Virus record (IMG/VR): IMGVR_UViG_3300045988_103014
Coordinates: 77,780-141,779 of that record
Source of the DNA: a virus
Direction: 5' to 3' (one strand)
Length of the DNA: 64,000 nt
Within the stretch, counting starts at the first letter, position 1, and the number at the start of each line of letters is the position of its first letter. Positions 1-33,860 of the stretch are shown in pieces. A program made the translations under genes and the position numbers. The notes beneath the pieces are model-generated. The model was not told the origin of the DNA. It saw only the letters and a list, made by a program, of their open reading frames with translations, and did not search any database.

Positions 1-260
1 CTACTGACCAAGTTTATATTGGACAGGCACGAGATATGGCATCACGATGGAAAGAACACGCGAAATGCGGTCTTGACATCGACCGTCCCGCAGGTAATAA
101 ATTATACCTTGCAATGATGGAAGATGGCATTGAAAATTTCTCATGGGAGCTTTTGGAGAAATGTACGCCACAAGAATTAAACGAAAAAGAGCGTCAGTAT
201 ATTGAACTATATCAAGCTTTAGAATATGGATATAACAGTAATAAGGGAGTTAGTAAATAA
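1..260 (+). CDS. GIY-YIG homing-endonuclease-like nuclease; 5' end cut by window edge (frame open from nt 3)
   Basis: Frame open from nt 3: TDQVYIGQARDMASRWKEH...GIENFSWELLEKCTPQELNEKERQYIELY...GYN matches the GIY-YIG catalytic core (YIG, conserved R, E, N). TAA at 258-260. No DNA-binding domain follows. Confidence 0.65.
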   Translation, partial: TDQVYIGQARDMASRWKEHAKCGLDIDRPAGNKLYLAMMEDGIENFSWELLEKCTPQELNEKERQYIELYQALEYGYNSNKGVSK

Positions 261-1111
261 TGAAGTTTGAAAATGTAAGAGTTATGAACTTTGAAAATGC
301 TTTGAGAGGAATGAGAAATCCAAAAAATTCATGGCATTTATCAGATAGTTCTTTTGGTTTGGAACATATGGATTGCATTGATTATGCAACTGACCCAGTA
401 GTAAACGCATATATGGAAGCTGGAGCCGAAGATGCGGAGCAGGTAAATTCTTACTTGTTAAATAATGGTATTATTCATCTACGCGGGGATTTGTGCGAAT
501 TCGCATTCATCGGTCCAAAAGATATGAAACTTGCTAAGGCACTCATTAAGGGTGGCCCAGAACATAGAAAATTTATGAGACAGATTTTTGTGTCTGTTGA
601 TATTACCGCTCCTCTCTATTGGTGGAAGGAGTTTGATACTTATAAAGTTGGTACTGTTGCCAACTCGACCAGTACAATGCACAAAATCACAAGTAAGGAA
701 ATTACTCGTGAGAATTTTGAAATGGATGATTACGTTCCTATTTTCCCCGACCCTGGTTATGAAGGTAAGGATGAACAGGTTTCAATTGACGTTCAGGTGG
801 ACGATATTGTCGAATTTCTTGAGGACTTACGCAAGAAATACTTGGAGTTGAAAGATACCGACCCAGACCGTGCATATGTCTACTGGAAGGAACTAATTCG
901 TTGGACTCCAGAGTCTTGGCTACAGACTAGAACTGTAACAATGAACTATGAGAACTTGCTGGCTATGTGTTCCAAGAGCCAGAGACGTTTCCATAAATTA
1001 AACGAGTGGTCAGGTCGCAAAGATGACTCGCTTGATAATTTCATTTCTTTCGCTAGAGATTTACCATATGCGGCTGACTTCATCTTTCTTGATGAGGTAG
1101 AGCAAGAGTAA
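260..1111 (+). CDS. Divergent ThyX-fold (flavin-dependent thymidylate synthase-like) protein; canonical RHR motif replaced
   Basis: 283 aa. SD AAGGGAG before the ATG at 260. N-terminus and the segment EHRKFMRQIFVSVDITAPLYWWKEFDTYKVGTVANSTSTMH parallel the ThyX layout (E-H...AP...QWFRHR...S..N..S.RY), but EFD stands where RHR is expected. Confidence 0.4.
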   Translation: MKFENVRVMNFENALRGMRNPKNSWHLSDSSFGLEHMDCIDYATDPVVNAYMEAGAEDAEQVNSYLLNNGIIHLRGDLCEFAFIGPKDMKLAKALIKGGPEHRKFMRQIFVSVDITAPLYWWKEFDTYKVGTVANSTSTMHKITSKEITRENFEMDDYVPIFPDPGYEGKDEQVSIDVQVDDIVEFLEDLRKKYLELKDTDPDRAYVYWKELIRWTPESWLQTRTVTMNYENLLAMCSKSQRRFHKLNEWSGRKDDSLDNFISFARDLPYAADFIFLDEVEQE

Positions 1112-1580: not shown

Positions 1581-2522
1581 ATGAAATCAATGATTAACAG
1601 AACTCACATCGAAGGATTACTTTATGAGCACGCACTTGAGTTGAGAACATCTGGTCCTAACTCTAAGAACCCTGGTACTGAGTTTATCATGGGTACTGTA
1701 AGCATCGCAACTGATGACGCACAGGTTAATATTGTGCCTGTTCACTTCACATATGTGACAGCTACTACTGCGAAGGGAACTGCAAATGCAACTTTCGGAG
1801 TATTGAAGGATATTATTGATGGCAAGCTTGGCACTGTTATGGGTAACGGCGCTGATGGTGCAGCAAAGCTTCGTATCGATTCTGCAGTAGGTCTTAATGA
1901 GTTCTACACAGATAGAAACGGACAGGAAGAGCTTGTTTCTGCAAAGAGAAATGAAGGTGGATTTATCCACACAACTGCTACTTTAGCAGAAGATGAGAAG
2001 GCTCGTAATACATTTGAGGTTGATATTGTAATCACAAATGTAAGACGTATTGAGGCTGATGAGGAGAAGAACATTCCTGAGAAGGCAATCGTAAAGGGTG
2101 CAATCTTCGACTTCAGAAAGAGTTTAATGCCAGTAGAGTTTTCAGTAACTAATCCTAACGCAATGGATTATTTCGAGGGACTTGAGGCTTCAAGCAAGAG
2201 CCCTGTCTTCACTAAGATTAAGGGACGTCAGGTTTCTGAGACAATCACTCGTAAGATTGTTGAAGAGTCTGCATTCGGTGAGGACTCTGTACGTGAGGTA
2301 AATTCAAGCCGTAAGGATTGGGTTGTAACTTGGGCACAGAAGGAGCCTTACATCTGGGATGATGAGGAAACAATCACAGCAGCTGAAATGACTGACGCAA
2401 TGAGCGCACGTCAGACTTATCTTGCAACTGTTAAGCAGAGAGCAGATGAGTATAAAGCTCAGAAGGCAGCTCAGGGTGGCTCTAAGGCAGCTCCTGCAGC
2501 AAGCGGTGGATACGACTTCTAA
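1581..2522 (+). CDS. Hypothetical protein, possibly a ssDNA-binding / recombination-mediator partner of the downstream Sak4 ATPase
   Basis: 313 aa. SD GAAGGAG. Ala/Gly-rich flexible C-terminal tail ending in acidic-aromatic ...AASGGYDF, as in SSB and gp2.5-type proteins. Lies immediately upstream of the Sak4-like gene. Confidence 0.3.
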   Translation: MKSMINRTHIEGLLYEHALELRTSGPNSKNPGTEFIMGTVSIATDDAQVNIVPVHFTYVTATTAKGTANATFGVLKDIIDGKLGTVMGNGADGAAKLRIDSAVGLNEFYTDRNGQEELVSAKRNEGGFIHTTATLAEDEKARNTFEVDIVITNVRRIEADEEKNIPEKAIVKGAIFDFRKSLMPVEFSVTNPNAMDYFEGLEASSKSPVFTKIKGRQVSETITRKIVEESAFGEDSVREVNSSRKDWVVTWAQKEPYIWDDEETITAAEMTDAMSARQTYLATVKQRADEYKAQKAAQGGSKAAPAASGGYDF

Positions 2523-2626: not shown

Positions 2627-3607
2627 ATGGCTATCAATCTATTAGACATTCAGCCAAACAAGGTAAGTAGAGACTTGGGCGGCTATATTACTTACATCTA
2701 CGGTCCTGCCGGCGCTGGTAAGACAACATTTGGTTCTAAGATGCCAAAGCCTCTGCTTCTTGCAGCTGAGCCTGGATATAGAGCCATCCCTGGTATTCGA
2801 GCAATCGACATTACTTCATGGGGCGAGCTAAAGCAGGTATTGAGAGAGCTTAAAAAGCCAGAAGTCAAAGATGCGTATTCTTCAATCATTTGTGATACAG
2901 TAGATATTATGGCAGACCTTTGCCAGAAGTACATCTGTAATCAGTTGGGCATCGAGAACATCGGTGACGGCGGCTGGACTACAAATGGTTGGTCTAAATA
3001 TAAGAAGGAGTTTGAGGAGACTTTCCGTACTCTTGCTCAGCAGGGTTACGCAATCGTATTCCTTGGACACGCAAAGGAAAAGACTATTAAGCCACAGTTC
3101 GGTGACGAGTATCAGCAGATTTGTCCTGCACTTCAGTCTTCTGCGGCAACCATCGTTGAGAATATGTGTGATATCATCGGATATGCTCACACTTATCTTA
3201 AGGAAGGAAATTCTTACAGAGTATTAACTCTTCGTTCTGCGGATGACAGCGTACTTTGCAAGAGCCGTTTCAAGAACATCAAGCATGAGATTGATTTCTC
3301 ATATGATTCACTTGCAGAGGCACTTCATGATGCTATTGATTCTGAGGCTGATGAGCACAATGGTCAGTTCGTAACTGATGATAAGATGAAGGCAGTTGAA
3401 GCTGCAACTTACGACTATGAGGCTCTTATGGCAGAGTTCCAGGATATGGTTGGTAAGATTATGGCAAGCAACTCTAACAACGCTCCTCGTATTTCTCAGA
3501 TTGTTGAGAAGTATCTTGGTCGCGGTAAGAAGGTATCTGATACCACCGCAAACCAGGCAGAGTTAGTTTCTCTTATCGTTGGAGAAATTAAAGACGAACT
3601 TATGTAA
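2627..3607 (+). CDS. Sak4-like RecA-fold ATPase (AAA_24 type phage recombination protein)
   Basis: 326 aa. SD AAGGAGA. Walker A YGPAGAGKTT. N-terminal MAINLLDIQP... and overall layout typical of Sak4 / AAA_24 proteins. Confidence 0.75.
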   Translation: MAINLLDIQPNKVSRDLGGYITYIYGPAGAGKTTFGSKMPKPLLLAAEPGYRAIPGIRAIDITSWGELKQVLRELKKPEVKDAYSSIICDTVDIMADLCQKYICNQLGIENIGDGGWTTNGWSKYKKEFEETFRTLAQQGYAIVFLGHAKEKTIKPQFGDEYQQICPALQSSAATIVENMCDIIGYAHTYLKEGNSYRVLTLRSADDSVLCKSRFKNIKHEIDFSYDSLAEALHDAIDSEADEHNGQFVTDDKMKAVEAATYDYEALMAEFQDMVGKIMASNSNNAPRISQIVEKYLGRGKKVSDTTANQAELVSLIVGEIKDELM

Positions 3608-3718: not shown

Positions 3719-4384
3719 ATGGCACATAATGTAACCTGTCCTATTTGTACTCGAAAGTTTGACAGAGATAAAGAAGAATATGTTCAAATGAGTGCCCGCA
3801 GATATGCTCACGCAAAGTGTGCATTAAGAGAAGCAGAAAAGAACTCTACTCCAGTTCCAGAGATAATCAATCCGCTTGATAATGTGGTTTGTGAGTATTG
3901 TAAGAAACCTATGAACCGCAAAGATGAAGATTGTGTACCGTTGGGGAATGGGAAATATGCTCATCGAGAGTGTCAGCATATCGAAGATACTCGAGAATTA
4001 ACTGAGCAAGAAAAACTTGATAGATACATTATGAAGTTATTTAAGACTGATTATGTACATCAAAGAGTAAAACGACAAATCAATGACTTTATGAAACAGT
4101 ATAATTATACATACTCAGGAATAAGGAAGTCATTGACTTATTGGTATGAAGTAAAGAAACAACCAATAGAAAAAGCCAATGGTGGAATTGGAATTGTTCC
4201 ATATATTTATAAAGACGCATATAATTATTACTATATGCTATGGGAAGCGCAACAAAAGAACCAAAATAAGGATATTGAAAGTTACAAGCCAGAGGATATT
4301 GTTATTCGCGTTCCCGCTCCGCAAAGGAATATTAAAAAGCGAAAGTTGTTTACTTTCTTGGACGAGGAGGAGAATAATGGCTAG
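3719..4384 (+). CDS. Double zinc-ribbon protein with basic C-terminus, possibly a helicase loader / replication accessory protein
   Basis: 221 aa. SD AAGGAAAGGAG. Two C-x2-C...H-x2-C modules (CPIC...HAKC and CEYC...HREC). Basic tail ...RNIKKRKLFTF. 3' end overlaps the dnaB start by 8 nt. Confidence 0.5.
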   Translation: MAHNVTCPICTRKFDRDKEEYVQMSARRYAHAKCALREAEKNSTPVPEIINPLDNVVCEYCKKPMNRKDEDCVPLGNGKYAHRECQHIEDTRELTEQEKLDRYIMKLFKTDYVHQRVKRQINDFMKQYNYTYSGIRKSLTYWYEVKKQPIEKANGGIGIVPYIYKDAYNYYYMLWEAQQKNQNKDIESYKPEDIVIRVPAPQRNIKKRKLFTFLDEEENNG

Positions 4385-5912
4385 TAAATATGTAGATTTG
4401 ACTGCGGTTATGCAGGTCATCGGATGTGTGTATAACAATCCGGGATTATTAGAATTTACAGACAAATATACAATCGTTGATGAAGACTTCGCCGATGAGT
4501 TCCACAGAACGGTGTTCGGCGCAATTTATAAAATTCACGAAATGGGTGCAAATAAAATTACACTCCAACAGATTGAAGATTTCTTGAGCACAAGACCTAA
4601 ATCAGCAGCGAATTTTAAGGTTAATAAAGGTGAAGAGTGGATTGTGAAAGTATCTGACACTTGCACACCTTCAGCTTTTGATTATTACTATAACCGATTA
4701 AAGAAATTTACTTTACTCCGTGCGTATGATAATTTTGGAATTGATGTAACAGACATTTATGACCCGGACAATATCATGGATGTAAAGAAGAAACAACTCC
4801 AAGAGGATATAGTTGATAATTCAACACTTGAGCAAATCGCAGATAAAATTGATGAAAGAATTAACTCAATTCGTTTGCAATATGTTGATGACTCTTTTGG
4901 AGAGGCTTCACAGGCTGGTGAAGGTATTGACGAGTTAATTGAGAACTTTATGAAGAATCCAGAAGTCGGAGTACCTTTATATGGTTCACTTATTAACACA
5001 GTAACTCGTGGCGCAAGATTGAAAAAGTTTTATCTTCGTTCTGCGGCAACTGGTGTTGGTAAGACTCGTAGTATGATTGCGGATTCATGTTATATCGCTT
5101 GTTCAAAAATCTACGATGATACTTTTGGTTGGATTAGAACTGGTGGCGGTAATGAACCAGTATTGTTTATTACAACTGAGCAGGAATTAGCTGAAATTCA
5201 GACAATGATGTTAGCATTTATCTCAGGTGTAAATGAAGACCATATCTTAAATGGTAAATATCTCGGAGATGAATTAGACCGAGTAATGCAAGCAAAGGAA
5301 ATCTTAAAAGCAGCTCCATTATATGTTGAAGAGTTGCCAGACTTCTCGCTGAAAGATGTTGAAGATAAGATTAAGAAAAACATTCGTGACCACGATGTAA
5401 AATATGTGTTTCACGATTATATACATACTTCTATGAAAATCTTGGAAGAGATTACAAGACGAAGTGGTGGTATTAAGTTAAGAGAAGATAATATCCTATT
5501 TATGTTATCAAACAAATTAAAGGATATTTGTAATAAATATGGTATCTTCATTATGTCAGCTACACAGTTGAATGGAGATTATCAGACAAGTGAGACCCCT
5601 GACCAGAACTTATTGCGTGGTGCAAAGGCGATTGCGGATAAGATTGACTTTGGTGCAATTTTATTGTTAGCAAAACAGGAAGACCACGAAGCATTAACTG
5701 AAATCTTAAACTCAAATGTTTTTGATAAACCAACAATTAAAATGTCAATTTACAAAAACAGACGAGGAAGATATAAGGGTGTTTATCTTTGGTGTAAAGC
5801 AGATTTGGGTTGCTGTCGTATTGAGCCAATGTTCTGTACGACTTGGGACTACGAACTGGTTGACATAAATAATATCAAGATTATGATTGAAGAAGAATCA
5901 AGTGCATTCTAG
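4377..5912 (+). CDS. dnaB: DnaB-type replicative DNA helicase
   Basis: About 511 aa from the ATG at 4377 (SD GGAGGAG). The ORF track begins upstream at 4179 in the same frame. DnaB N-domain, Walker A LRSAATGVGKTRS, C-terminal RecA-like domain. Confidence 0.85.
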   Translation: MASKYVDLTAVMQVIGCVYNNPGLLEFTDKYTIVDEDFADEFHRTVFGAIYKIHEMGANKITLQQIEDFLSTRPKSAANFKVNKGEEWIVKVSDTCTPSAFDYYYNRLKKFTLLRAYDNFGIDVTDIYDPDNIMDVKKKQLQEDIVDNSTLEQIADKIDERINSIRLQYVDDSFGEASQAGEGIDELIENFMKNPEVGVPLYGSLINTVTRGARLKKFYLRSAATGVGKTRSMIADSCYIACSKIYDDTFGWIRTGGGNEPVLFITTEQELAEIQTMMLAFISGVNEDHILNGKYLGDELDRVMQAKEILKAAPLYVEELPDFSLKDVEDKIKKNIRDHDVKYVFHDYIHTSMKILEEITRRSGGIKLREDNILFMLSNKLKDICNKYGIFIMSATQLNGDYQTSETPDQNLLRGAKAIADKIDFGAILLLAKQEDHEALTEILNSNVFDKPTIKMSIYKNRRGRYKGVYLWCKADLGCCRIEPMFCTTWDYELVDINNIKIMIEEESSAF

Positions 5913-6195: not shown

Positions 6196-7305
6196 ATGAT
6201 AGACTACAATAAAACAGAAATACGAGAGCAAGTAAAGCTTGAGAATGTTTTTGATTTATTGCAGGAATGGGGCGGAGACCCTGAATATACAGCGTTTGGG
6301 ATAATCTCCGCCACGATATGTCATAATAAACCTGGAGAAGGAAGTCGTAAGTTGTATTACTATGAAAACAGTGGATTGTTTCAATGTTACACTGGTTGTC
6401 AAGGTTATTTTGACATATTTGAAATGGTATGCAAAATCATGGACATTCAGCAAGGTTTGGAGTTTGACCTAAATGATGCGGTTCGTTGGATTGCGACAAA
6501 ATTAGGTATCTCAGGAACTATTAGGGATGATAATGCTGAAGAGACAGGAATGGAAGATTGGGTTCTTCTTGCGAACTACTCAAGAATTCAAGAAATAACT
6601 CCAAAAGAAAAACAAGAGATTATTCTTAAAGAGTATGATAAAGCAATTCTCTCTCGTTTAAATTACAGTTTACGATTAGAGCCATGGCTCAATGAACATA
6701 TTAACCAAGAGGTAATTGAATATGCACAAATTGGATATTATCTTGGCGGCGACCAAATAACTATCCCCCACTTTGACAAGGATAATCGTTTTGTGGGTCT
6801 GCGCGGCAGAACAATGTGTAAAGAAGAAGCTGAAAAATTTGGTAAGTATAGACCGATTAAATGTTGCGGTCAGATGTACAACCATCCTCTTGGAATGAAC
6901 TTATATGGATACTCTTGGGCGAAAGATAATATTAAGGCTATGAAAAAGGCAATTATTTTTGAGTCTGAAAAGTCCGTATTGATGTATATGTCATATTTTG
7001 GAATTGAGAATAATATTGCGGTTGCTTGTTGCGGTAGTAACATCTCTGCGTACCAAATTCAGTTGTTAATAGATGCTGGTGCGGAGGAGATTATTGTTGC
7101 GTTTGACCGACAGTTTCAAGAGATTGGCGACAAGGAACATCAGCATTTAGTAAAGAATTTTAAGACTTTGCATAATAAGTTCAAGAACTATGTTTTAATT
7201 TCTTTCATGTTTGATAAACAGATGATAACGGGTTACAAAGCTAGCCCGATTGATGAGGGCGTTGAAAAGTTTATGACGCTATTTAAAGAAAGGGTTGTCT
7301 TATGA
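6196..7305 (+). CDS. DnaG-like DNA primase (CHC2 zinc finger + TOPRIM)
   Basis: 369 aa. Zinc-finger CHNKPGEGS...FQCYTGCQGYFDIFE. TOPRIM-like IIFESEKS and AFDRQFQEIGD. Confidence 0.7.
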   Translation: MIDYNKTEIREQVKLENVFDLLQEWGGDPEYTAFGIISATICHNKPGEGSRKLYYYENSGLFQCYTGCQGYFDIFEMVCKIMDIQQGLEFDLNDAVRWIATKLGISGTIRDDNAEETGMEDWVLLANYSRIQEITPKEKQEIILKEYDKAILSRLNYSLRLEPWLNEHINQEVIEYAQIGYYLGGDQITIPHFDKDNRFVGLRGRTMCKEEAEKFGKYRPIKCCGQMYNHPLGMNLYGYSWAKDNIKAMKKAIIFESEKSVLMYMSYFGIENNIAVACCGSNISAYQIQLLIDAGAEEIIVAFDRQFQEIGDKEHQHLVKNFKTLHNKFKNYVLISFMFDKQMITGYKASPIDEGVEKFMTLFKERVVL

Positions 7306-7773: not shown

Positions 7774-9537
7774 ATGGAATATCAACTTATTAAACCATTG
7801 CTCCCAGATAAAAATTTAACAGTGGTAGAGCGGGTTTTATCAAACAGAGGTATTATGCCGGAGAATATTCAGCATTACCTTAACACCACAGATGATGACA
7901 TTATTGACCCTACAATGCTTATGAATGTAGAGGTCGGTGCAAAGATGCTCATCAGACACATTTCACAAGGTGACGATGTTCTAATACAAATAGATAGTGA
8001 CTGTGATGGCTACACTTCTTCCGCAGCACTTATCAACTATTTGTACAGTCTTTTCCCTGGCTTTGTGAAAAACCATGTATTTTATCGTATCCATACGGGG
8101 AAACAGCACGGTATAATTCCACAAACAGTACCAGATAATATTAAGTTAGTAATTGCACCAGATTCAAGTTCAAATGATTATGATGAACACAAAGAATTAC
8201 ATGAAAAAGGAATTGACGTGTTGGTAATTGACCACCATGAGGCAGATGCTATTTCCGAGCATGCTTGCATCATCAATAATCAATTATGTGACTACCCAAC
8301 AAAATCCCTATCGGGAGTTGGTGTTGTCTACAAGTTCTGTAGCTATATTGATAGTTTAATGGGTGTATCAAATGCAGACTTGATTTTAGACTTAGTTGCA
8401 GTTGGTATGGTGGCCGACATGATGGATTTGCGTGATTACGAGACCCGACACTTGGTCACAAAGGGACTCGACAATATCCGCAACCCTTATCTCAAGGGGA
8501 TGGTACAGACCCAAAACTTTAGTATTTCTAAACATGGCGGGTTAGACCCCTTTGCGGTAAGCTTTTATATTGCACCTCAAGTCAACGCGACTATTCGTGT
8601 TGGCACGCAAGAAGAAAAGCTCATGCTATTCGAATCTATGCTTGACTATCGGGGATATGAACAAGTCCCTTCGACCAAACGAGGATGTAAGGGTCAAACA
8701 GAGACGAGAGTAGAACAGGCTTGTCGTAATTGCTTAAACATTAAGAATAGGCAAACAAAAGCAAGAGACACAAGCTTGAATACAATTGAACAGATAATTG
8801 AAAAAAATAATCTTTTAGACCACAAGTTTTTAGTAGTTAAACTTGAACCTGACTATGCTACTGATAGGAACCTTACTGGATTGATTGCAAACCAGTTGAT
8901 GGCTAAATATCAGAGACCAGTCCTATTACTGAACCGAGTTACAAATCCGGAAACTAAGGCAGTAAGCTGGGAAGGGTCAGGCAGAGGATACGACAAGTCC
9001 AAGTTTGACAACTTGAGAGAGTATCTCAAGACTACAGATTTGGTCATGTACGCTGAGGGACACGCAAATGCGCTGGGCGTAGGCGTAGAGGACAGCCATT
9101 TTTCTGAATTGGTTGACCGTGCTGACACGGACTTAAAAGATTATGATTTCACCCCATGTTATAAAGTAGATGAAATCTTCCACAGTTCTGACTTTAACGG
9201 AAATGATATTGTCGAAGTGGCTGAGTTAAAATCTATATGGGGCCAAGGAGTAGAGGAACCTATGATTGCGATTGAAGGTATAAATGTTACAAAAGCAAAT
9301 GTAACTCTGATGTCGCCTGATAAGAGCCCTACTTTGAAGATAACCTTGCCAAATGGCACGAGTTTAATTAAGTTCAGGTCGTCAAGTGAAGAGTATGAGA
9401 ACTTATGCTCTGAGCTTGGTTGTGTAACCATCAATGTTGTGGGAAAATGTGAACGCAACGTTTGGAATGGTAGTATTACTCCACAAATAATTATTGAAGA
9501 TTACGAAATTGTAGGAAGCACTCAATACTATTTTTAA
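7774..9537 (+). CDS. RecJ-like DHH-family ssDNA exonuclease / phosphoesterase
   Basis: 587 aa. SD AAAGGAGG. DHH motifs IDSDCDGYTSSAAL and VIDHHEAD. Confidence 0.8.
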   Translation: MEYQLIKPLLPDKNLTVVERVLSNRGIMPENIQHYLNTTDDDIIDPTMLMNVEVGAKMLIRHISQGDDVLIQIDSDCDGYTSSAALINYLYSLFPGFVKNHVFYRIHTGKQHGIIPQTVPDNIKLVIAPDSSSNDYDEHKELHEKGIDVLVIDHHEADAISEHACIINNQLCDYPTKSLSGVGVVYKFCSYIDSLMGVSNADLILDLVAVGMVADMMDLRDYETRHLVTKGLDNIRNPYLKGMVQTQNFSISKHGGLDPFAVSFYIAPQVNATIRVGTQEEKLMLFESMLDYRGYEQVPSTKRGCKGQTETRVEQACRNCLNIKNRQTKARDTSLNTIEQIIEKNNLLDHKFLVVKLEPDYATDRNLTGLIANQLMAKYQRPVLLLNRVTNPETKAVSWEGSGRGYDKSKFDNLREYLKTTDLVMYAEGHANALGVGVEDSHFSELVDRADTDLKDYDFTPCYKVDEIFHSSDFNGNDIVEVAELKSIWGQGVEEPMIAIEGINVTKANVTLMSPDKSPTLKITLPNGTSLIKFRSSSEEYENLCSELGCVTINVVGKCERNVWNGSITPQIIIEDYEIVGSTQYYF

Positions 9538-9578: not shown

Positions 9579-10487
9579 ATGAAAACAAAAATAACTAAGA
9601 AACTTGTAGCAGCAATGCTTATTATGGCATGTTTTTTAATGCTAGTAGGCATGGGTTGCCACGCGGGTACTAATACAACTTCGGAAGCTGACATCCCTTC
9701 TGAAACTATTGAAATGACAACTGAATATGAAGTTTGCACCGTACAAATGAATGATGTTGCTACTGTGGGAGCCGCATATGAAGTAGAGGAAGAGCCAATC
9801 GTGCTTGATGCCTCAGAAATTTCAGTAGTGGAAACCAGAGACAAATCGGAATTAGAAAACTTAATACAGGAAACTGAGACCAAGTTATCAGCTGCTCAGG
9901 CTATGCTTGAGAGCTGTCAGACTCTTGGTTATACAGATGATAATCCAGTAGTAGTATTAGCAAATGAAGAAGTAGCTAATATTCAAGCCGTACTTAATAC
10001 ATATAATGAGACTTATGCTGAGGTTCTAGTTGAGGTTAGAAACCAGGAGCGTATGGAAGAGTATCCTGCGGCAACTACAGTTTGGAATTATTTAACCCAG
10101 ACATTAGGTTACAGTGATGCGGTGGCTGCCGGTATCCTTGGCAATATGATGGCTGAAGTCGGTGGACAAACACTTGCTCTACAGCCAAGTATTTATGGGC
10201 ATTCATCGAATGGATATTATGGAATTTGCCAATGGAGCCTACGCTATTATCCTTCAGTAAATGGCGCAAGTCTTGAAGGACAGCTAGATTTATTGGCAAG
10301 TACTATCGAAGCTGAATTCAATGAATTTGGTTTTGTATCTGGATACTCTTATGAAGAGTTTTTACAGATTACAGACGAAAAGGCTGCAGCACTTGCATTC
10401 GCAAAGACGTATGAAAGATGTGGTTCTGGTAGCTATTCAGTAAGACAAAAAAATGCAACAAAGGCGTTAGAATACTATACTAATTAA
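9579..10487 (+). CDS. Secreted protein with C-terminal phage-tail-lysozyme-like (lysozyme2-type) domain
   Basis: 302 aa. SD TAGGAGG. N-terminal signal peptide (KKLVAAMLIMACFLMLVGMGCHAG). C-terminal AAGILGNMMAEVGGQ...YYGICQWS matches the G-N-x3-E-x-G ... Q-W pattern of phage tail lysozyme domains. Confidence 0.6.
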   Translation: MKTKITKKLVAAMLIMACFLMLVGMGCHAGTNTTSEADIPSETIEMTTEYEVCTVQMNDVATVGAAYEVEEEPIVLDASEISVVETRDKSELENLIQETETKLSAAQAMLESCQTLGYTDDNPVVVLANEEVANIQAVLNTYNETYAEVLVEVRNQERMEEYPAATTVWNYLTQTLGYSDAVAAGILGNMMAEVGGQTLALQPSIYGHSSNGYYGICQWSLRYYPSVNGASLEGQLDLLASTIEAEFNEFGFVSGYSYEEFLQITDEKAAALAFAKTYERCGSGSYSVRQKNATKALEYYTN

Positions 10488-10498
10488 AGGAGAGAGTT

Positions 10499-11011
10499 AT
10501 GAAGAAATCAATGATGTTTATGATTTCCTTGCTCTTAATCTTATGTATACTAACTCCAAGTATGGAAGTCCAAGCGGCGCAAAAGTATAAAACCGCACAA
10601 ACTGTGTGGGATTACCTCGACGAGCAAGGATATAATGATTATGTAAAAGCTGGCATTATAGGTAATATGATGGCAGAATGTGGTGGACAGACTTTAGCTC
10701 TCAATGCTGGGTGCAAAAGTAGTGCGCATTATGGTCTATGTCAATGGAGTCGCAAATATTGTCCAAATATGTATGGCGCTTCATTGAAAAGCCAGTTGAA
10801 ATATTTGAATAAAACAATGCCTGATGCTTTTAAGTATTATGGTAAAAGATATAAGGGCGGTTTTAATTTCAAGAAATTCAAAAACTTAAAAGATGAAAAA
10901 CAAGCCGCCAGAGCGTTTTCGCTTTGTTATGAACGGCCAGCCTCTAAGAATACTAAAAAGAGAGAGGCTAATGCTACTAAAGCATTAAAGTATTTTCGTT
11001 CTAAAAAGTAA
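10499..11011 (+). CDS. Secreted lysozyme2-like protein, paralog of the upstream gene
   Basis: 170 aa. SD AAAGGAGAG. Signal peptide MKKSMMFMISLLLILCILTPSMEVQA. KAGIIGNMMAECGGQ...HYGLCQWS. Confidence 0.6.
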   Translation: MKKSMMFMISLLLILCILTPSMEVQAAQKYKTAQTVWDYLDEQGYNDYVKAGIIGNMMAECGGQTLALNAGCKSSAHYGLCQWSRKYCPNMYGASLKSQLKYLNKTMPDAFKYYGKRYKGGFNFKKFKNLKDEKQAARAFSLCYERPASKNTKKREANATKALKYFRSKK

Positions 11012-17903: not shown

Positions 17904-18186
17904 TTGTGTACTTGATGACTTAGTAAAAGCGATTAAAAAGGTGGAGGCGTTCCCATGCCCCACCTACTTCGTCGCTTTCTTCCCTCAATATGCAAAGGAA
18001 CTGTGGCCAGATGAGTTTTTCACTTGCGGCAACAAAACATATCTTAAAGCAGACCCAACTCAAGAAGTTATTTTTTATCCAAATGAATTTAAGTCTGCCG
18101 AACTGGAAAATACTCCAGTTTATTTAATACCAATAGATGAATTAAGACCTATTAAAATAGCATATGAAGGGAGTTTAAGTGTTTGA
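17890..18186 (+). CDS. Hypothetical protein
   Basis: 98 aa, overlaps the pol 3' end. Confidence 0.45.
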   Translation: MNQANCVLDDLVKAIKKVEAFPCPTYFVAFFPQYAKELWPDEFFTCGNKTYLKADPTQEVIFYPNEFKSAELENTPVYLIPIDELRPIKIAYEGSLSV

Positions 18187-18737
18187 AAAAATATAATATT
18201 GTTGCTTTTATTGGACCTGCGGGCGCAGGTAAAGATACAGTAATGCGAAAGGTGGTTGAGGCTTGTCCAAACCTTCACGAAATTGTAAGCTGTACAACTA
18301 GACCTATGCGTCAAGGTGAGGTTCATGGAGTTAATTATTTTTATATGAAGCCCGAAGAGTTTAGTGATAAAGTTCTTCATGGCGAGATGCTTGAAGCCAG
18401 TTGTTTTAATGATTGGTTTTATGGTACTGGATATGAGTCACTACGCTCTGATTGTATAAATATTGGAGTGTTTAATCCAGAGGGTATTGAATCACTCTTG
18501 GCTCATCCAGACGTAGATGTTAAGGTATTTTATGTGCGCGCGTCAGATAAAAATAGGATGCTGCGCCAGCTCTATAGAGAAGATGACCCAGACGTGATGG
18601 AAATTATTCGTCGTTTTAGAGCAGACCTTATCGACTTTGAAGATATTGATTTTCCTCACGAGGAAATTCAAAATAATTCGATTGAGGATTTGGAGAATGC
18701 GGTTGCATACATTAGTGGTCTCTATGCTGAAGCATAG
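18183..18737 (+). CDS. Guanylate-kinase-like (deoxy)nucleoside monophosphate kinase
   Basis: 184 aa. TTG start at 18183 with SD GAAGGGAG 9 nt upstream. P-loop GPAGAGKDT. Signature TTRPMRQGEVHGVNYFY. Confidence 0.65.
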   Translation: MKKYNIVAFIGPAGAGKDTVMRKVVEACPNLHEIVSCTTRPMRQGEVHGVNYFYMKPEEFSDKVLHGEMLEASCFNDWFYGTGYESLRSDCINIGVFNPEGIESLLAHPDVDVKVFYVRASDKNRMLRQLYREDDPDVMEIIRRFRADLIDFEDIDFPHEEIQNNSIEDLENAVAYISGLYAEA

Positions 18738-18854: not shown

Positions 18855-21176
18855 ATGATTAGAATAGCTAAACGAGATAAGGAAATCGTAGTATTTGATA
18901 AAAAGAAAATTGAAAATGCTATCAACAAGGCTTTCCTTGAAGTTGATGGAGTTCTATATGAAACCGATACTGCGAGAGATATCGCTGATGATATTGAAGA
19001 AGTCTTGTATAAGATTGACGAAGCAACGAATGAGCCTGTCACTGTTGAACAGGTACAGGATTTAGTTGAAGATTTCTTAATGCAATCCGAGCGACGCGAT
19101 GTTGCACGTGCTTATACTCGTTATCGTTACAAGAGAGAGATTGCTCGAAATCATTCGAGCGAACTTATTGATGCTATTGCTCAAAAATTAAGAGCAACTA
19201 ATGTTCAAAATCAAAATGCAAATGTTGATGAACATTCATTCGGTGGCCGCATGGGTGAAGCCAATGCCGTGGTTACTGAAAAGTACGCATTAGATTTTTG
19301 CGTTTCAAAGAAGACTAGAGAAAACCATATTAAGAATAGAATTTATATTCACGATTTGAATGCATATGCAGTTGGTATGCATAACTGCTTGTCTATTCCT
19401 ATCGACCCGATTGCCGCAAAAGGTTTTAATACAAGACAAATTGATATTAGACCTTGCCGCAGTTTTGGTACTTTTGGTCAAGTTTCTGCTGTTGTTATGC
19501 AGCTACAAAGTCTACAACAGTTCGGTGGAGTTTCTTATACTCATTATGATTGGAGTTCAGTTCCATATGTGCGTATGAGTTTCACCAAACACTTAGGAGA
19601 TGGTATGTTATATTTGGAGGGCAAGTCTGAATATAAAGTTAAGCGTTTCCACAAGTGGTTGGAGCATGACCCAGAGCACCCAGATGGAACAATCCATATG
19701 GATGATGAAGAGTTTAAGGCATTGCACCCAGTAGCATGGGAATATGCAATGGATATGACTGAAAGAGAAGTATATCAGACAGTTGAAGCACTTTACCACA
19801 ATCTTAATACTTTACAGAGTAGAAGTGGTAATCAGTTACCTTTTAGTTCTATCAATTATGGAACTTGCACATTACCAGAAGGTAGAATGGTAACAAAAGC
19901 ATTGCTTGAAGTTTCTATTGAAGGTTTAGGAAAAATGCACAAGACTTCTATTTTCCCTTGTGGAATTTTCCAATGTATGACAGGCGTTAATCGTAAACCA
20001 GGAGACCCAAATTATGATTTATTCAAACTTGCTTTGCGCTCCACAGCACAGCGTTTATACCCAAACTATGCAAATGTTGATTGGAGTGGTAATGCTGGAT
20101 ACGACAGAGCGGACCCTAGAACTTACTTCAGCACAATGGGATGTCGTACTGCAAACGGCTGGGATATCAACGGACTCGGACAGCTTAAAGATGGGCGCGG
20201 TAACATTGCACCGACAACCATAATCTTACCTACTTTAGCAATGGAAGCTGTAAAGAGTTATGAAGGAATTCCTTGCGGCGATTATAAACGTGATGTTGTA
20301 GATTTATTTATTCAAATCCTTGATGAAGCAATTCACGACGCTAAAGATAGTTTAATTGAACGTTTTGATTGGATTTGTAGTCAGGATGCGGGTTCCGCAA
20401 GATTTATGTATGAAAATGGTTTGATGGCGGGTTATGTACCAGAAGAAGGAATTCGTTCCGCACTTAAACATGGTACTCTTGCTATTGGACAGCTGGGTCT
20501 TGCAGAAACTTTACAGTTGTTAATTGGTTGCGACCATACTGAACCAGAAGGTATGGAATTAGCAAAGAGAATTGAAGGTTTATTTAAGCAGAGATGTGCA
20601 GAGTTTAAGGAAGAGTATAAACTAAACTTTGGTGTTTACTACACACCTGCGGAGAACCTTTGCTATAAAGCAATGAAGAAATTTCAGAGCCAATATGGAG
20701 TTATTCCTAATGTATCTGAAAATGAATTCTTCACAAATTCAATGCATGTTCCTGTGTGGAAGAATGTAGATGTATTTGAGAAAATTGACATTGAAAGCGA
20801 ATTGACTGGTTATAGTTCTGCTGGATGTATCACATATGTAGAACTTGACTCAGGTATTAAGAATAACCTTGAAGCCTTAGAACAAATTGTGAATTATGCT
20901 ATGGATAAAGATATTCCTTATTTCGCAGTTAATGTACCTAACGACACTTGCTTAGATTGTGGTTATACTGATGAGTTCAATGATTGTTGTCCAATTTGCG
21001 GCAGTACTCATATTCAACAGTTACGTCGTGTTACCGGATATCTCACCGGTAATTATACAACCGCTTTCAATAAAGGTAAGCAAGAAGAAGTGAAGATGAG
21101 AGTGAAACATAGTAATGTCAAGCACATTACTTTAAAAGGGGGTCAACAACATGCAGTATGCGGGGCTAATACTTAA
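18855..21176 (+). CDS. nrdD: Anaerobic ribonucleoside-triphosphate reductase (class III)
   Basis: 773 aa. SD GGAGGA. N-terminal ATP-cone. Zn-ribbon CLDCGYTDEFNDCCPICGS. Glycyl-radical motif RRVTGYLTG near the C-terminus. Confidence 0.9.
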   Translation: MIRIAKRDKEIVVFDKKKIENAINKAFLEVDGVLYETDTARDIADDIEEVLYKIDEATNEPVTVEQVQDLVEDFLMQSERRDVARAYTRYRYKREIARNHSSELIDAIAQKLRATNVQNQNANVDEHSFGGRMGEANAVVTEKYALDFCVSKKTRENHIKNRIYIHDLNAYAVGMHNCLSIPIDPIAAKGFNTRQIDIRPCRSFGTFGQVSAVVMQLQSLQQFGGVSYTHYDWSSVPYVRMSFTKHLGDGMLYLEGKSEYKVKRFHKWLEHDPEHPDGTIHMDDEEFKALHPVAWEYAMDMTEREVYQTVEALYHNLNTLQSRSGNQLPFSSINYGTCTLPEGRMVTKALLEVSIEGLGKMHKTSIFPCGIFQCMTGVNRKPGDPNYDLFKLALRSTAQRLYPNYANVDWSGNAGYDRADPRTYFSTMGCRTANGWDINGLGQLKDGRGNIAPTTIILPTLAMEAVKSYEGIPCGDYKRDVVDLFIQILDEAIHDAKDSLIERFDWICSQDAGSARFMYENGLMAGYVPEEGIRSALKHGTLAIGQLGLAETLQLLIGCDHTEPEGMELAKRIEGLFKQRCAEFKEEYKLNFGVYYTPAENLCYKAMKKFQSQYGVIPNVSENEFFTNSMHVPVWKNVDVFEKIDIESELTGYSSAGCITYVELDSGIKNNLEALEQIVNYAMDKDIPYFAVNVPNDTCLDCGYTDEFNDCCPICGSTHIQQLRRVTGYLTGNYTTAFNKGKQEEVKMRVKHSNVKHITLKGGQQHAVCGANT

Positions 21177-21657
21177 CGATACCTCAAATGCTGGTACTGG
21201 AGTTTGCGTTTCCTTTTATACCCAAGGCTGCCCTCACTGTTGTGAGGGTTGCCATAACCCAGAAACATGGAATTCAACTGGAGGATACGAATTTGTTCCC
21301 GAAGTCTTAAATGAAATCCTTGATGGTATAAAGGCAAACGGAATTAAGAGAAATTTTTGTGTCCTTGGTGGAGAGCCATTGTGTTCTTCAAATTTATTTT
21401 TAACTTATTTAGTAGTTAAATCGGTTCGAGATGCTTATCCCGATATTAAGATTTATATTTGGACAGGATATACCTTTGAAGATTTAATGAAAAGCACACC
21501 ACCAAAGCTAAGAGATATTTTGTTGATGAGTGATGTTCTTATTGACGGACCATATATCCAAGAAATGCGCGATGTTACACTTCCTTTAAGAGGTTCCACT
21601 AACCAGCGTGTTATCAACTTGAAGGATGCAGAAGTGCTATCAGCTCTTGAAAAATAG
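21151..21657 (+). CDS. nrdG: Anaerobic RNR activating protein (radical SAM)
   Basis: 168 aa. CPHCCEGCHN (Cx3Cx2C cluster). Overlaps the nrdD 3' end. Confidence 0.85.
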   Translation: MQYAGLILNDTSNAGTGVCVSFYTQGCPHCCEGCHNPETWNSTGGYEFVPEVLNEILDGIKANGIKRNFCVLGGEPLCSSNLFLTYLVVKSVRDAYPDIKIYIWTGYTFEDLMKSTPPKLRDILLMSDVLIDGPYIQEMRDVTLPLRGSTNQRVINLKDAEVLSALEK

Positions 21658-22474: not shown

Positions 22475-22720
22475 ATGGGTAGATATGTAATTAGTGATAC
22501 AACCGTTTATCGTGTCCCTGATGTAGCCGCAGTAGAGCAGCTTCACGAGGAACTTTCAAATGACGGCAAATTCCAGTTAGTGGGTTTCAGCTATAAAACC
22601 AAGCAGATTAAGGTTAAGGGAGAAGTTGTTGAAGAGTATCAGGTAGTAACTGCCAAGAGAGTGTTCAATGAAGAGAAAGACCCAATCAGCACTGTAGAGA
22701 TTGAGTACGAGGTGAACTAA
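22475..22720 (+). CDS. Hypothetical protein
   Basis: 81 aa. SD GAGGT. Confidence 0.45.
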   Translation: MGRYVISDTTVYRVPDVAAVEQLHEELSNDGKFQLVGFSYKTKQIKVKGEVVEEYQVVTAKRVFNEEKDPISTVEIEYEVN

Positions 22721-23271
22721 TGGCAAAGTTTGAGAAAGTAAGTAAATACGCAAATGTAGATATTCAGATGCCTTGTAGGAAGACAACTGATGCCGCAGGT
22801 TATGATATGGTTGCGGCTGAGGATATCATTATCCCTCCATACAATTATTTAATGAACGAGATTGTTAGTTTTGTTGGTATTGATAAAATTGATGACCCAG
22901 TTACATTAGATGAGATGGCAAAGATTACAAAGTCAGCTCAAGCTAAGCCAACTCTCATTCCTACTGGTATGAAATGTCAGCTTGAACCAAATACTTACCT
23001 TGAACTTTCGGTAAGAAGTTCTTGTCCTCTTAAGCATTGGCTTATGATGGCAAATAGTGTAGGTATTATTGACGCTGATTATTATAATAATCCAGATAAT
23101 GAAGGACATATTTTCTTCCAGATTTATAATATGTCACCAATTCCTATCATTATCAAGAAAGGTGAAGCTATTGGTCAGGGTATTATTAAGAACTATATTA
23201 AGACTGAGGATGATGTGCCAGGTGGTACTCGCGTAGGAGGTTTCGGTTCTTCTGACCAGAAGGCGCAGTAA
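22720..23271 (+). CDS. dut: dUTP pyrophosphatase
   Basis: 183 aa. Motif GIIDADYY, C-terminal motif V GGTRVGGFGSSD. Confidence 0.75.
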   Translation: MAKFEKVSKYANVDIQMPCRKTTDAAGYDMVAAEDIIIPPYNYLMNEIVSFVGIDKIDDPVTLDEMAKITKSAQAKPTLIPTGMKCQLEPNTYLELSVRSSCPLKHWLMMANSVGIIDADYYNNPDNEGHIFFQIYNMSPIPIIIKKGEAIGQGIIKNYIKTEDDVPGGTRVGGFGSSDQKAQ

Positions 23272-23810
23272 TGAGATTACTCGCACTAGACCAAGCAAGT
23301 AAAGTAACAGGCTATTCCATCTTTATTGATGGAAAGCTTGAGACTTTTGGTAAAATCACTGCAAACCAGGAAGAAATTGGTGACAGATTGCATTATATCA
23401 GAGAAAGTGTTGCAAAACTAATTGCAGATTACGATATTGATTATATTGCTTTTGAAGATATCCAACTCCAAAAGGATAGTAATGGTAGAGAAATTGTGAA
23501 TAATGTTCAAACCTTTAAAGTCCTTGCGGAAGTATTTGGAGTGATTTATGAATTGGCGATTGCGCTTGGTATTCCTAATGAGGCCGTTTTGGCGAGTACT
23601 TGGAAGTCAACACTTCAGATTAAAGGAAAACAAAGAGATGAGCAAAAGCGAAATGCTCAGGCATATGCGCAAACCACATATGGAATTAAATGTACTCAAG
23701 ATGAAGCTGATGCACTTTGCATTGGGACTCATATCCTAGTTAAGTCAGGATTAGCTACAAAACCAAAAAAAGCAACTTCTGTAGGGGACGTTGGTTTCGA
23801 TTGGTCATAA
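23271..23810 (+). CDS. RuvC-family Holliday junction resolvase
   Basis: 179 aa. MRLLALDQASKVTGYSIF and AFEDIQLQ are typical of phage RuvC-like resolvases. Confidence 0.65.
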   Translation: MRLLALDQASKVTGYSIFIDGKLETFGKITANQEEIGDRLHYIRESVAKLIADYDIDYIAFEDIQLQKDSNGREIVNNVQTFKVLAEVFGVIYELAIALGIPNEAVLASTWKSTLQIKGKQRDEQKRNAQAYAQTTYGIKCTQDEADALCIGTHILVKSGLATKPKKATSVGDVGFDWS

Positions 23811-33739: not shown

Positions 33740-33860
33740 ATTTTTTAACCTCACTCTCTAAGCTTTTGGTTATACACCACTCGGCTTTAAAATTTTTTGT
33801 TTTTAATCTCTTATATATATAGATTTTACTATTAGTTTTTTAACATATCTTGGCCAATAA

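What the first reader, a model, noticed from the sequence alone, without database searches (positions are those of the whole stretch)
260..1111. ThyX-fold protein with the dUMP-phosphate-binding RHR motif replaced by an acidic EFD
The layout follows ThyX (…E-H…AP..(Y/F)..QWF-RHR…S.N..S.RY), but the aligned segment reads APLYWWKEFDTYKVGTVANSTSTMH. If the fold assignment is right, this protein cannot bind dUMP phosphate in the canonical way. It may act on another pyrimidine nucleotide, for example for a DNA base modification, or it may be a non-catalytic paralog. It lies next to a kinase, dUTPase and RNR genes that support a dedicated nucleotide pathway.
Basis: inference. Interest (0 to 1): 0.55.

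Follow-up and report, generated by a model that had tools for sequence, protein, structure and literature searches.

The report
ThyX-fold enzyme lacking the ThyX motif
This phage gene encodes a protein with the fold of the flavin-dependent thymidylate synthase ThyX but without its signature cofactor-binding motif. It belongs to a very large unannotated family, also found on gut Clostridia chromosomes, whose gene neighbours point to thymidylate/folate metabolism.

Summary

RHR is indeed absent, but its counterpart is T127-Y128-K129, not E124-F125-D126. ThyX's dUMP-activating Arg174, Ser88, Asn85 and His178 are kept (R242, S138, N135, H245). The FAD-phosphate contacts and Arg90/Tyr91 are replaced by other near-invariant residues.

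The family is very large: at least 3,587 clusters at 50% identity. It occurs in phages and as a chromosomal gene in gut Clostridia. Members are fused to three unrelated dNMP-kinase domains. Four genomic loci have the gene translationally coupled to dihydrofolate reductase. In phages it sits with NrdD/G and dUTPase, never beside ThyA or ThyX.

Best reading (about 0.45): an active, ThyX-derived thymidylate-synthase-like enzyme with a remodelled or lost flavin site. The DNA-modification and non-catalytic readings are less likely. The function has not been tested, and I could not check whether carrier genomes lack thyA/thyX.

The parts
260..1111 (+). Gene for the 283-aa ThyX-fold protein (PHROG 6721 family)
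299..349 (+). N-terminal family motif A14..G17.R19-N20...S24....D29-S30 (ALRGMRNPKNSWHLSDS)
   Evidence: Present in at least 113 of 126 family sequences at each of these positions. The counterpart in ThyX could not be mapped reliably.
350..511 (+). Lineage-specific insertion (aa 31-84: helical hairpin plus beta-hairpin), absent from the roughly 205-220-aa cellular and short phage members
   Evidence: Alignments A1 and A2. DSSP of the model. Cellular sequences.
551..682 (+). Core active-site segment, aa 98-141: GGPEHRKFMRQIFVSVDITAPLYWWKEFDTYKVGTVANSTSTMH. It is equivalent to T. maritima ThyX 51-91 (HGHETPFEH...AP...RHR...NELSGRY).
   Evidence: hhalign. HMM alignment. Column frequencies.
638..646 (+). 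T127-Y128-K129, the positional equivalent of the ThyX RHR motif (R78-H79-R80)
   Evidence: plus direct counting from the A-P anchor. T in 121, Y in 124 and K in 115 of 126 sequences.
662..682 (+). N135-S136-T-S138-T-M140-H141, equivalent to ThyX N85-E86-L-S88-G-R90-Y91 (substrate loop). Asn and Ser are kept; Arg becomes Met and Tyr becomes His.
   Evidence: Roles of S88, R90 and Y91 from PMC8316439.
980..1009 (+). Q241-R242-R-F-H245-K-L-N-E249-W250, equivalent to ThyX L173-R174-A-D-S-H178...E182. The dUMP-activating Arg and the His are retained.
   Evidence: hhalign. R in 121 and H in 121 of 126 sequences. Role of R174 from PMC8316439.
3..260 (+). GIY-YIG endonuclease gene, 5' end cut off by the window. 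Its stop codon overlaps the ATG of the ThyX-fold gene by 1 nt. Its cluster lies within 4 genes of the family gene (mostly -1 or -2) in 34 of 81 sources.
   Evidence: Translation. Pfam GIY-YIG hit on the cluster representative, 4.3e-10. Synteny.
18183..18737 (+). Guanylate-kinase-like (d)NMP kinase, the presumed downstream enzyme. The same cluster lies directly after the ThyX-fold gene in 7 related phage loci, and a Guanylate_kin/AAA_18 kinase domain is fused to the family domain in P0197.
   Evidence: Pfam Guanylate_kin, 3e-16..
18855..21657 (+). NrdD (18855-21176) and NrdG (21151-21657), anaerobic ribonucleotide reductase and its activase
   Evidence: Pfam NRDD 8.6e-141; Fer4_12 / Radical_SAM.
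22720..23271 (+). dUTPase with a weak dCTP-deaminase-like hit, the presumed dUMP supplier
   Evidence: Pfam dUTPase 2.7e-12; DCD 0.0026.

Best explanation
The gene encodes a catalytically active, ThyX-derived enzyme that acts on a pyrimidine deoxynucleoside monophosphate in a folate-linked one-carbon reaction. The most likely reaction is dUMP to dTMP, that is, a divergent thymidylate synthase.

Proposed mechanism:
- The protein keeps the ThyX scaffold. A ThyX-like oligomer with interface active sites is inferred, not shown.
- It keeps the part of the pocket that holds and polarises the uracil: R242 (ThyX R174), S138 (S88), N135 (N85) and H245 (H178).
- The residues that clamp the FAD phosphates and ribityl in ThyX are replaced by a different, equally invariant set. 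RHR becomes T127-Y128-K129, T55 becomes K104, E58 becomes R107 and R165 becomes E231. The R90/Y91 pair becomes M140/H141.
- So either the flavin is bound in a different way, or it is not used and methylene-tetrahydrofolate supplies both the carbon and the hydride, as in ThyA, releasing dihydrofolate.
- In this phage, NrdD/G and the dUTPase would supply dUMP, and the guanylate-kinase-like kinase would phosphorylate the product.

Shown: the fold, the residue pattern, the family distribution and the gene contexts. Inferred: the substrate, the reaction, the cofactor and the oligomer.
For: Fold: only ThyX-family structures match. Sequence bridge: 24 of 126 members hit Pfam Thy1 at E<=1, and P0228 scores 29.3 bits against a cut-off of 24.8. 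The ThyX uracil-activating and substrate-loop residues are retained and near-invariant (their roles).

The product is probably a dNMP. Members are independently fused to three unrelated kinase domains: DNMK (P0138), Guanylate_kin/AAA_18 (P0197) and DUF3310, the T7 gp1.7 nucleotide-kinase domain (P0228). The kinase gene lies directly downstream in 7 phage loci and within 4 genes in 5 genomic loci.

Folate link. DHFR lies immediately downstream in 4 genomic loci, with 4-bp stop/start overlaps in L162 and L172, the classic thyA-folA layout. DHFR-less bacteria are mostly ThyX users (PMC1971073).

The thymidylate-synthase niche looks open. No ThyA or ThyX was found in the 64-kb window, in 80 viral loci (+-10 kb), in 80 genomic loci (+-6 kb), or in nearly all of the 99,962-bp PMBT24 genome (record positions 316-99,962). 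PMBT24 has NrdD/G, dUTPase and a dNMP kinase.

Housekeeping behaviour. There are single-copy chromosomal orthologues; one exact sequence occurs on at least 961 contigs, including a 3.5-Mb chromosome. The protein is 81-86% identical where the adjacent DHFR is 52-65%. Homing endonucleases lie next to or inside the gene (GIY-YIG, HNH), as is known for phage thymidylate synthase genes (the T4 td/I-TevI comparison is from my own knowledge).
Against: No biochemical evidence exists. The defining ThyX motif and every mapped FAD-phosphate contact are changed, so canonical ThyX chemistry is not expected.

Profile-profile similarity to ThyX is marginal (hhalign E 0.03-0.15). The residue mapping therefore rests on sequence alignment and secondary structure, not on a printed structural superposition. 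One low-confidence hhalign run gave a different register, with MHK opposite RHR.

The DHFR coupling is seen in only one clade (4 of 77 genomic loci). In Lachnospiraceae the gene instead follows DUF5685, a DnaJ-domain gene and a small ORF, which says nothing about nucleotides.

I could not test whether carrier genomes lack thyA/thyX. Absence of a thymidylate synthase in phage genomes is weak evidence, because most phages have none: 2,682 of 50,697 records carry ThyX.
Confidence: 0.45

Rival explanations
1. One reading: the enzyme makes a non-canonical pyrimidine dNMP (for example 5-hydroxymethyl-dUMP or a modified dCMP). The phage kinase and polymerase then put it into virion DNA as a base modification.
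For: The remodelled active site suggests altered chemistry. Kinase fusions mirror the T4 and SPO1 pathways, in which a modified dNMP needs a dedicated kinase (pathway knowledge is my own). The phage encodes its own PolIII-alpha replicase, a dUTPase and a kinase.
Against: Orthologues with the same invariant residues are chromosomal genes of many gut Clostridia among housekeeping genes. Cellular hypermodified DNA is not expected there. No further modification genes (glycosyltransferases, 5-hmdU kinases and the like) were recognised among the window ORFs scanned. The PMBT24 genome was sequenced with a standard Illumina TruSeq library, and its paper reports nothing unusual about the DNA.
Confidence: 0.12
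2. A ThyX-fold enzyme with a different substrate class or reaction. Examples: a nucleotide hydrolase or phosphatase, a nucleotide-pool sanitiser, or a uridine-modifying enzyme acting on RNA. The links to kinases and DHFR would then be indirect.
For: All FAD-phosphate contacts and two dUMP-binding arginines are replaced. Chromosomal contexts are heterogeneous and mostly uninformative. There is a second invariant N-terminal motif (R19, S24, D29, S30) with no mapped ThyX counterpart.
Against: The uracil-activating Arg and the substrate-loop Ser and Asn of ThyX are retained. The kinase fusions, DHFR coupling and RNR/dUTPase neighbourhood converge on deoxynucleotide and folate metabolism.
Confidence: 0.23
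3. A non-catalytic ThyX paralog: a nucleotide-binding regulator or structural partner, for example of the kinase or of the replisome.
For: Loss of the signature catalytic and cofactor motif is typical of pseudoenzymes. In the window's phage lineage the gene sits at the head of a replication module: wHTH protein, AAA_24 ATPase, DnaB, primase.
Against: About 20 polar residues are conserved in at least 113 of 126 diverse sequences, and they cluster at the positions of the ThyX active site. The protein evolves more slowly than the adjacent DHFR. No canonical ThyX that it could partner was found near it, or in nearly all of the PMBT24 genome. It is widely kept as a single chromosomal gene.
Confidence: 0.1
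4. An ordinary FAD-dependent ThyX that is merely very divergent, with the same chemistry and the flavin held by alternative residues.
For: Same fold. New invariant basic residues (K104, R107, K129, R19) could bind phosphates in place of RHR, and the polarity swap E58 to R107 alongside R78 to T127 with D126 looks compensatory (inference).
Against: Every diverse viral ThyX that kept a recognisable motif region retains RHR..S.RY, as does the ThyX alignment A4 (R90, H91, R92 invariant in its numbering). None of 126 family members has RHR at the equivalent position. R90 and Y91, which matter kinetically in ThyX, are Met and His. Coupling to DHFR is atypical for ThyX users.
Confidence: 0.1

Closest known systems
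Flavin-dependent thymidylate synthase ThyX / FDTS (Pfam PF02511 Thy1; NCBIfam TIGR02170; PDB 1O26, 3AH5, 2AF6)
   Different: No RHR (T-Y-K instead). R90 becomes M, Y91 becomes H, T55 becomes K, E58 becomes R and R165 becomes E. The window protein has no Pfam or NCBIfam match. In a clade of Clostridia MAGs the gene is coupled to DHFR. The window protein carries a 54-residue insertion (aa 31-84). The family has an extra invariant N-terminal motif.
PolB, the UMP/dUMP C5-methylase of polyoxin biosynthesis (PDB 4P5A)
   Different: PolB is recognisably a ThyX by sequence: phmmer E 3.7e-34 to T. maritima ThyX. From my own knowledge it is flavin-dependent and keeps the ThyX motif. The present family is not detectable by simple sequence search.
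ThyA (classical thymidylate synthase) with its thyA-folA operon
   Same: Functional analogy only. The gene occupies the position immediately upstream of, and overlapping, DHFR. It is very slowly evolving. In phages it is a neighbour or target of homing endonucleases.
   Different: Unrelated fold and sequence; there is no ThyA similarity. No conserved cysteine nucleophile: C237 is invariant only among close relatives.
Phage modified-dNMP pathways (T4 gp42 dCMP hydroxymethylase plus gp1 dNMP kinase; SPO1 dUMP hydroxymethylase)
   Same: A pyrimidine-dNMP C5 enzyme is functionally tied to a dedicated dNMP kinase. A T4 gp1-like DNMK domain is fused to family member P0138.
   Different: Those enzymes are ThyA homologues (my own knowledge). 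Here the fold is ThyX, and identical-motif orthologues are cellular housekeeping-type genes.

Membership tests
ThyX / FDTS (PF02511, TIGR02170) | ThyX (Thy1) three-dimensional fold | tested here: met
ThyX / FDTS (PF02511, TIGR02170) | ThyX signature motif RHR(X7-8)S | tested here: not met
   The equivalent residues are T127-Y128-K129 ... S138. Only the Ser is kept. RHR occurs at this position in 0 of 126 family members.
ThyX / FDTS (PF02511, TIGR02170) | Match to the curated family models above their cut-offs | tested here: not met
   Window protein: no Pfam or NCBIfam hit even at E<=10. Family: 24 of 126 give sub-threshold Thy1 hits, and only P0228 passes (29.3 vs 24.8 bits). TIGR02170 scores 15.9 bits against a cut-off of 87.9. 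Of ten cellular members, two give sub-threshold Thy1 hits (E 0.13-0.19) and the rest none.
ThyX / FDTS (PF02511, TIGR02170) | FAD-binding residues: RHR plus the Ser/Thr55 and Arg165 equivalents | tested here: not met
   By alignment these are T-Y-K, K104 and E231. Residue roles from PMC6514825. Actual flavin binding was not testable.
ThyX / FDTS (PF02511, TIGR02170) | dUMP-activating and dUMP-binding residues (R174, S88, R90, Y91 lid) | tested here: inconclusive
   R174 maps to R242 and S88 to S138; both are kept and near-invariant. R90 maps to M140 and Y91 to H141. Roles.
ThyX / FDTS (PF02511, TIGR02170) | Homotetramer with active sites formed by three subunits | not testable with these tools
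   Only a monomer could be predicted.
ThyX / FDTS (PF02511, TIGR02170) | NADPH-, FAD- and CH2-THF-dependent conversion of dUMP to dTMP | not testable with these tools
   Needs biochemistry or genetic complementation.
PHROG 6721 (unknown function) | Significant match to the family profile over most of its length | tested here: met
   E 5.9e-49, 167.7 bits, residues 2-251 against profile positions 9-199 of 218.
ThyA (classical thymidylate synthase) | Sequence similarity to ThyA | tested here: not met
   phmmer with E. coli ThyA found nothing in the window, the loci or the PMBT24 genome.

The most novel reading that the evidence does not exclude
This family is a third mechanistic class of thymidylate synthase. 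It would be a ThyX-fold enzyme that has lost the flavin and, like ThyA, uses methylene-tetrahydrofolate as both carbon and hydride donor, releasing dihydrofolate (hence the translational coupling to DHFR). It would serve as the sole or main dTMP source in many gut Clostridia and their phages, and current annotation pipelines would not see it.
Probability: 0.15. Interest if true: 0.92.

Novelty: new variant of a known kind. Interest (0 to 1): 0.68.

Why it matters
Thymidylate synthesis is thought to be covered by two enzyme families, ThyA and ThyX, and both are drug targets.

This is a very large, strongly conserved and unannotated branch of the ThyX fold. It lacks the motif by which ThyX is defined and recognised. 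It occurs both in abundant human-gut Clostridia and in their phages.

If it makes dTMP, several things would need revisiting. These include genome-based predictions of thymidine auxotrophy, antifolate and trimethoprim susceptibility, and the ThyX-versus-ThyA status of gut bacteria. It would also show how a flavoenzyme scaffold can be rewired.

If it makes something else, it marks an unknown step of deoxynucleotide metabolism shared by bacteria and phages.

Either way the question is directly testable: complement a thyA deletion and run a simple enzyme assay.

Tried and rejected
- Sequence searches found nothing useful: phmmer of the window protein gave one chance hit (E 0.66), and profiles A1 and A3 found nothing in the PDB. 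The fold had to be established by structure prediction.
- The first AF2 run, on 30 close homologues, gave a poor model (pLDDT 74, conserved core below 50). It was discarded for the 126-sequence run.
- hhalign of the family against ThyX profiles gave only E 0.03-0.15 and very low probability. I used it for residue register only, not as evidence of homology.
- A low-stringency hhalign run placed M140-H141-K142 opposite RHR. I rejected it for three reasons. It needs a 13-residue gap. It conflicts with the HMM alignment. It also conflicts with helix 119-128 of the model, which by my recollection of ThyX structures matches ThyX helix 70-80.
- A ThyX HMM built only from Thermotogae sequences was too narrow. 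It was replaced with 42 diverse viral ThyX sequences.
- The afdb50 fold library was unavailable.
- Rfam found only tRNAs in 12 chromosomal loci, and no riboswitch near the gene.
- Pfam scans of 10 other window ORFs found no DNA-modification genes.
- Literature searches found no description of this family or of a third thymidylate synthase.
- The PMBT24 paper has no data on DNA modification.
- I considered using the absence of ThyA/ThyX in carrier phage genomes as evidence. It is weak, because few phages encode a thymidylate synthase.

Full report
**The observation**

The window has an ATG-initiated ORF at 260-1111 (+) encoding 283 aa. The peptide APLYWWKEFDTYKVGTVANSTSTMH is residues 117-141.

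Standard annotation fails on this protein:
- No Pfam-A or NCBIfam family matches, even at E<=10.
- A sequence search of the PDB gives one chance hit at E 0.66, and family profiles give none.
- The only named match is PHROG 6721, 'unknown function' (E 5.9e-49).

The gene is nevertheless real and highly conserved. There are more than 8,000 homologues at E<=0.001 in the 90%-clustered database, where the candidate limit was reached. There are 3,587 cluster representatives at 50% identity, 957 of them below 1e-30.

**Fold**

An AlphaFold2 run on 30 close homologues was poor (pLDDT 74). With 126 diverse family members the model is very confident (pLDDT 95.3, pTM 0.90).

- Foldseek against the PDB lists only ThyX entries in its top 50 (E about 3e-6, probability 1.0).

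There is also a weak sequence bridge. Of the 126 members, 24 hit Pfam Thy1 at E<=1. One member, P0228, exceeds the gathering cut-off (29.3 vs 24.8 bits).

**What replaces RHR**

My recalled T. maritima ThyX sequence is 100% identical to PDB 1kq4/1o26, so its numbering can be used.

Counting without gaps from the shared Ala-Pro that ends the central strand puts RHR (78-80) opposite T127-Y128-K129, not E124-F125-D126. The anchors are A68-P69 in ThyX and A117-P118 in the window. Two alignments give the same register:
- hhalign against a Thermotogae ThyX alignment;
- an independent HMM of 42 diverse viral ThyX sequences aligned to family member P0132 (E 9e-6 in that small search).

The model has a helix at 119-128, which ends where (by my recollection of ThyX structures) ThyX helix 70-80 ends. 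A low-stringency hhalign run gave another register, with MHK opposite RHR, but it needs a 13-residue gap and I rejected it.

The full mapping, with family frequencies out of 126:

| ThyX residue | Window residue | Count |
|---|---|---|
| G52 | G99 | 121 |
| T55 | K104 | 123 |
| E58 | R107 | 123 |
| R74 | K123 | 99 |
| Q75 | E124 | 116 |
| R78 | T127 | 121 |
| H79 | Y128 | 124 |
| R80 | K129 | 115 |
| S83 | T132 | 115 |
| N85 | N135 | 115 |
| E86 | S136 | 125 |
| S88 | S138 | 125 |
| R90 | M140 | 123 |
| Y91 | H141 | 124 |
| N163 | N229 | 87 |
| R165 | E231 | 96 |
| R174 | R242 | 121 |
| H178 | H245 | 121 |

The literature gives the roles of these ThyX residues. RHR together with the Ser/Thr55 and Arg165 equivalents H-bond the FAD phosphates and ribityl, and the first Arg also touches the isoalloxazine ring and dUMP. 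R174, S88 and R90 bind dUMP, and Y91 is the lid (PMC6514825). R174 activates dUMP, while S88, R90 and Y91 assist methylene transfer (PMC8316439).

So the uracil-activating part of the pocket is kept. The flavin-phosphate clamp is replaced by a different, equally invariant set of residues. This is a remodelled active site, not decay. All diverse viral ThyX sequences that kept a recognisable motif region retain RHR..S.RY.

**Context in the window**

The gene opens a + strand replication and nucleotide block:

| Coordinates | Product |
|---|---|
| 3-260 | GIY-YIG endonuclease; its stop overlaps the ATG by 1 nt |
| 260-1111 | the ThyX-fold gene |
| 1208-1561 | winged-helix protein |
| 1581-2522 | 313-aa protein with no family match |
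| 2627-3607 | AAA_24 ATPase |
| 4179-5912 | DnaB |
| 6196-7305 | primase |
| 7774-9537 | RecJ |
| 11557-12744 | SF1 helicase |
| 14019-17903 | PolIII-alpha |
| 18183-18737 | guanylate-kinase-like kinase |
| 18855-21657 | NrdD/NrdG |
| 22720-23271 | dUTPase |
| 23271-23810 | RuvC |

The kinase, RNR and dUTPase are thus 17-22 kb away, not adjacent. No ThyA or ThyX is present anywhere in the 64 kb.

**Related phages**

In IMG/VR, 582 stretches encode relatives, and I analysed 80 loci. About half share the synteny GIY-YIG | gene | wHTH | 318-aa protein | AAA_24, with gyrase A/B and NAD-ligase upstream.

- The guanylate-kinase-like gene lies directly downstream in 7 loci.
- NrdD is within four genes in 9 loci, NrdG in 6 and dUTPase in 4.

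Among the 150 listed family representatives, I scanned ten of the longest and found these domain fusions:
- a T4 gp1-like DNMK kinase (P0138);
- a Guanylate_kin/AAA_18 kinase (P0197);
- DUF3310 (P0228), the domain implicated in the nucleotide-kinase activity of T7 gp1.7 (PMC10700055);
- in-frame HNH/NUMOD4 endonuclease insertions (P0201, P0226, P0262).

I also examined the cultured Enterocloster phage PMBT24 (99,962 bp; record positions 316-99,962 searched). It carries the gene two ORFs downstream of a dNMP kinase, plus NrdD/G, dUTPase and PolIII-alpha. It has no ThyA or ThyX.

**Cellular genomes**

This changes the picture. The family is also found in at least 594 stretches of species-representative bacterial genomes. 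These are mainly Clostridia (Lachnospiraceae, Oscillospiraceae, Ruminococcus), with some Treponema. They include isolates such as Jutongia huaianensis, Merdimmobilis hominis and Copranaerobaculum intestinale.

These members are about 205-220 aa. They lack the 31-84 insertion and keep every motif. Their neighbours are ordinary chromosomal genes: ABC-F, Mur ligase, TatD, RuvC/RuvB, PurL, DXP synthase and SpoIVA. One exact sequence (P0424, 'MULTISPECIES: hypothetical protein [Clostridia]') occurs on at least 961 contigs, including a 3.5-Mb chromosome.

In four MAG loci (L161, L162, L170, L172) dihydrofolate reductase (Pfam 1e-43) follows immediately. The stop/start overlap is 4 bp in L162 and L172. 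Among those loci the ThyX-fold protein is 81-86% identical while the DHFRs are only 52-65% identical. No ThyA or ThyX lies within +-6 kb of any of the 80 loci. Neither Pfam Thy1 nor NCBIfam thyX recognises the cellular members, so annotation pipelines do not count them as thymidylate synthases.

**Interpretation**

The evidence is the ThyX scaffold, the retained uracil-activating residues, the fusions to three unrelated dNMP-kinase domains, the thyA-like coupling to DHFR, the neighbourhood with RNR and dUTPase, and very slow evolution. Taken together, these are best explained by an active, folate-linked pyrimidine-dNMP C5 enzyme, most simply a divergent thymidylate synthase.

Two observations leave the cofactor question open. 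The flavin-phosphate contacts are replaced, and DHFR-less bacteria are mostly ThyX users (PMC1971073). The enzyme may bind flavin differently, or it may work without flavin and release dihydrofolate.

The hypermodified-DNA reading is weakened by the chromosomal orthologues and by the lack of any other modification genes. The non-catalytic reading is weakened by the invariant polar residues at active-site positions. None of this is biochemical evidence, and the decisive phyletic test (do carrier genomes lack thyA/thyX?) could not be run here.

**Novelty**

Literature searches found no description of this family. GenBank, RefSeq and JGI call its members 'hypothetical protein'. I rate it a new variant of a known kind: a ThyX-superfamily branch without the ThyX motif.

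Noticed in passing
window 3-260 (+): A GIY-YIG endonuclease ORF is cut off by the window start, and its stop codon overlaps the ATG of the ThyX-fold gene by 1 nt. The same cluster lies within 4 genes of the family gene (mostly 1-2 genes upstream) in 34 of 81 sources. That is unusually stable for a homing endonuclease.
   Followed up: partly
proteins P0201, P0226, P0262 (family representatives): HNH_3 + NUMOD4 homing-endonuclease modules, with an HTH in P0226, are inserted in-frame into the variable loop after the STMHK motif. This gives continuous ORFs of 400-419 aa. I did not determine whether these are true domain insertions, intein-like elements or unrecognised introns.
   Followed up: no
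window 1581-2522 (+): A 313-aa protein with no Pfam hit lies two genes downstream of the ThyX-fold gene in 33 related phage loci, between the winged-helix gene and the AAA_24 ATPase. It ends in an Ala/Gly-rich tail, ...GGYDF. It may be an SSB or annealing protein, but its function is unknown.
   Followed up: no
window 9579-10487 and 10499-11011 (+): Two adjacent paralogous Phage_lysozyme2 (tail lysozyme) genes sit inside the replication block, between RecJ and the SF1 helicase.
   Followed up: no
window 22720-23271 (+): The 183-aa dUTPase also gives a weak dCTP-deaminase-like (DCD) hit (E 0.0026). It could be a bifunctional dCTP deaminase/dUTPase that makes dUMP directly.
   Followed up: no
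window 27920-33754, 37008-44435, 47245-52725, 53094-57416, 57413-60490 (all -): Five giant minus-strand ORFs (1944, 2475, 1826, 1440 and 1025 aa) fill most of the second half of the window. I did not scan them. The smaller neighbouring ORFs had no Pfam hits.
   Followed up: no
window 3719-4384 and 4179-5912 (+): The mechanically listed DnaB ORF starts at 4179, inside the preceding 221-aa ORF. The DnaB N-terminal domain begins at about residue 74, so the true start is probably the Met of MASKYVD..., near nt 4377. The overlap is likely a start-codon artefact.
   Followed up: no
loci L207, L235-L243 (Lachnospiraceae chromosomes): There is a conserved chromosomal string: a 135-aa ORF, DUF5685, a DnaJ-domain protein, a 76-83-aa ORF, the ThyX-fold gene, then an FlK-like thioesterase. 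The gaps are short, which suggests co-transcription. None of the partners has a known link to nucleotide metabolism.
   Followed up: partly
loci L161, L162, L170, L172: Where the ThyX-fold gene and DHFR are coupled, the ThyX-fold protein is 81-86% identical between genomes while the DHFR is only 52-65% identical. An ABC-F ATPase gene precedes the pair in three of the four loci.
   Followed up: partly
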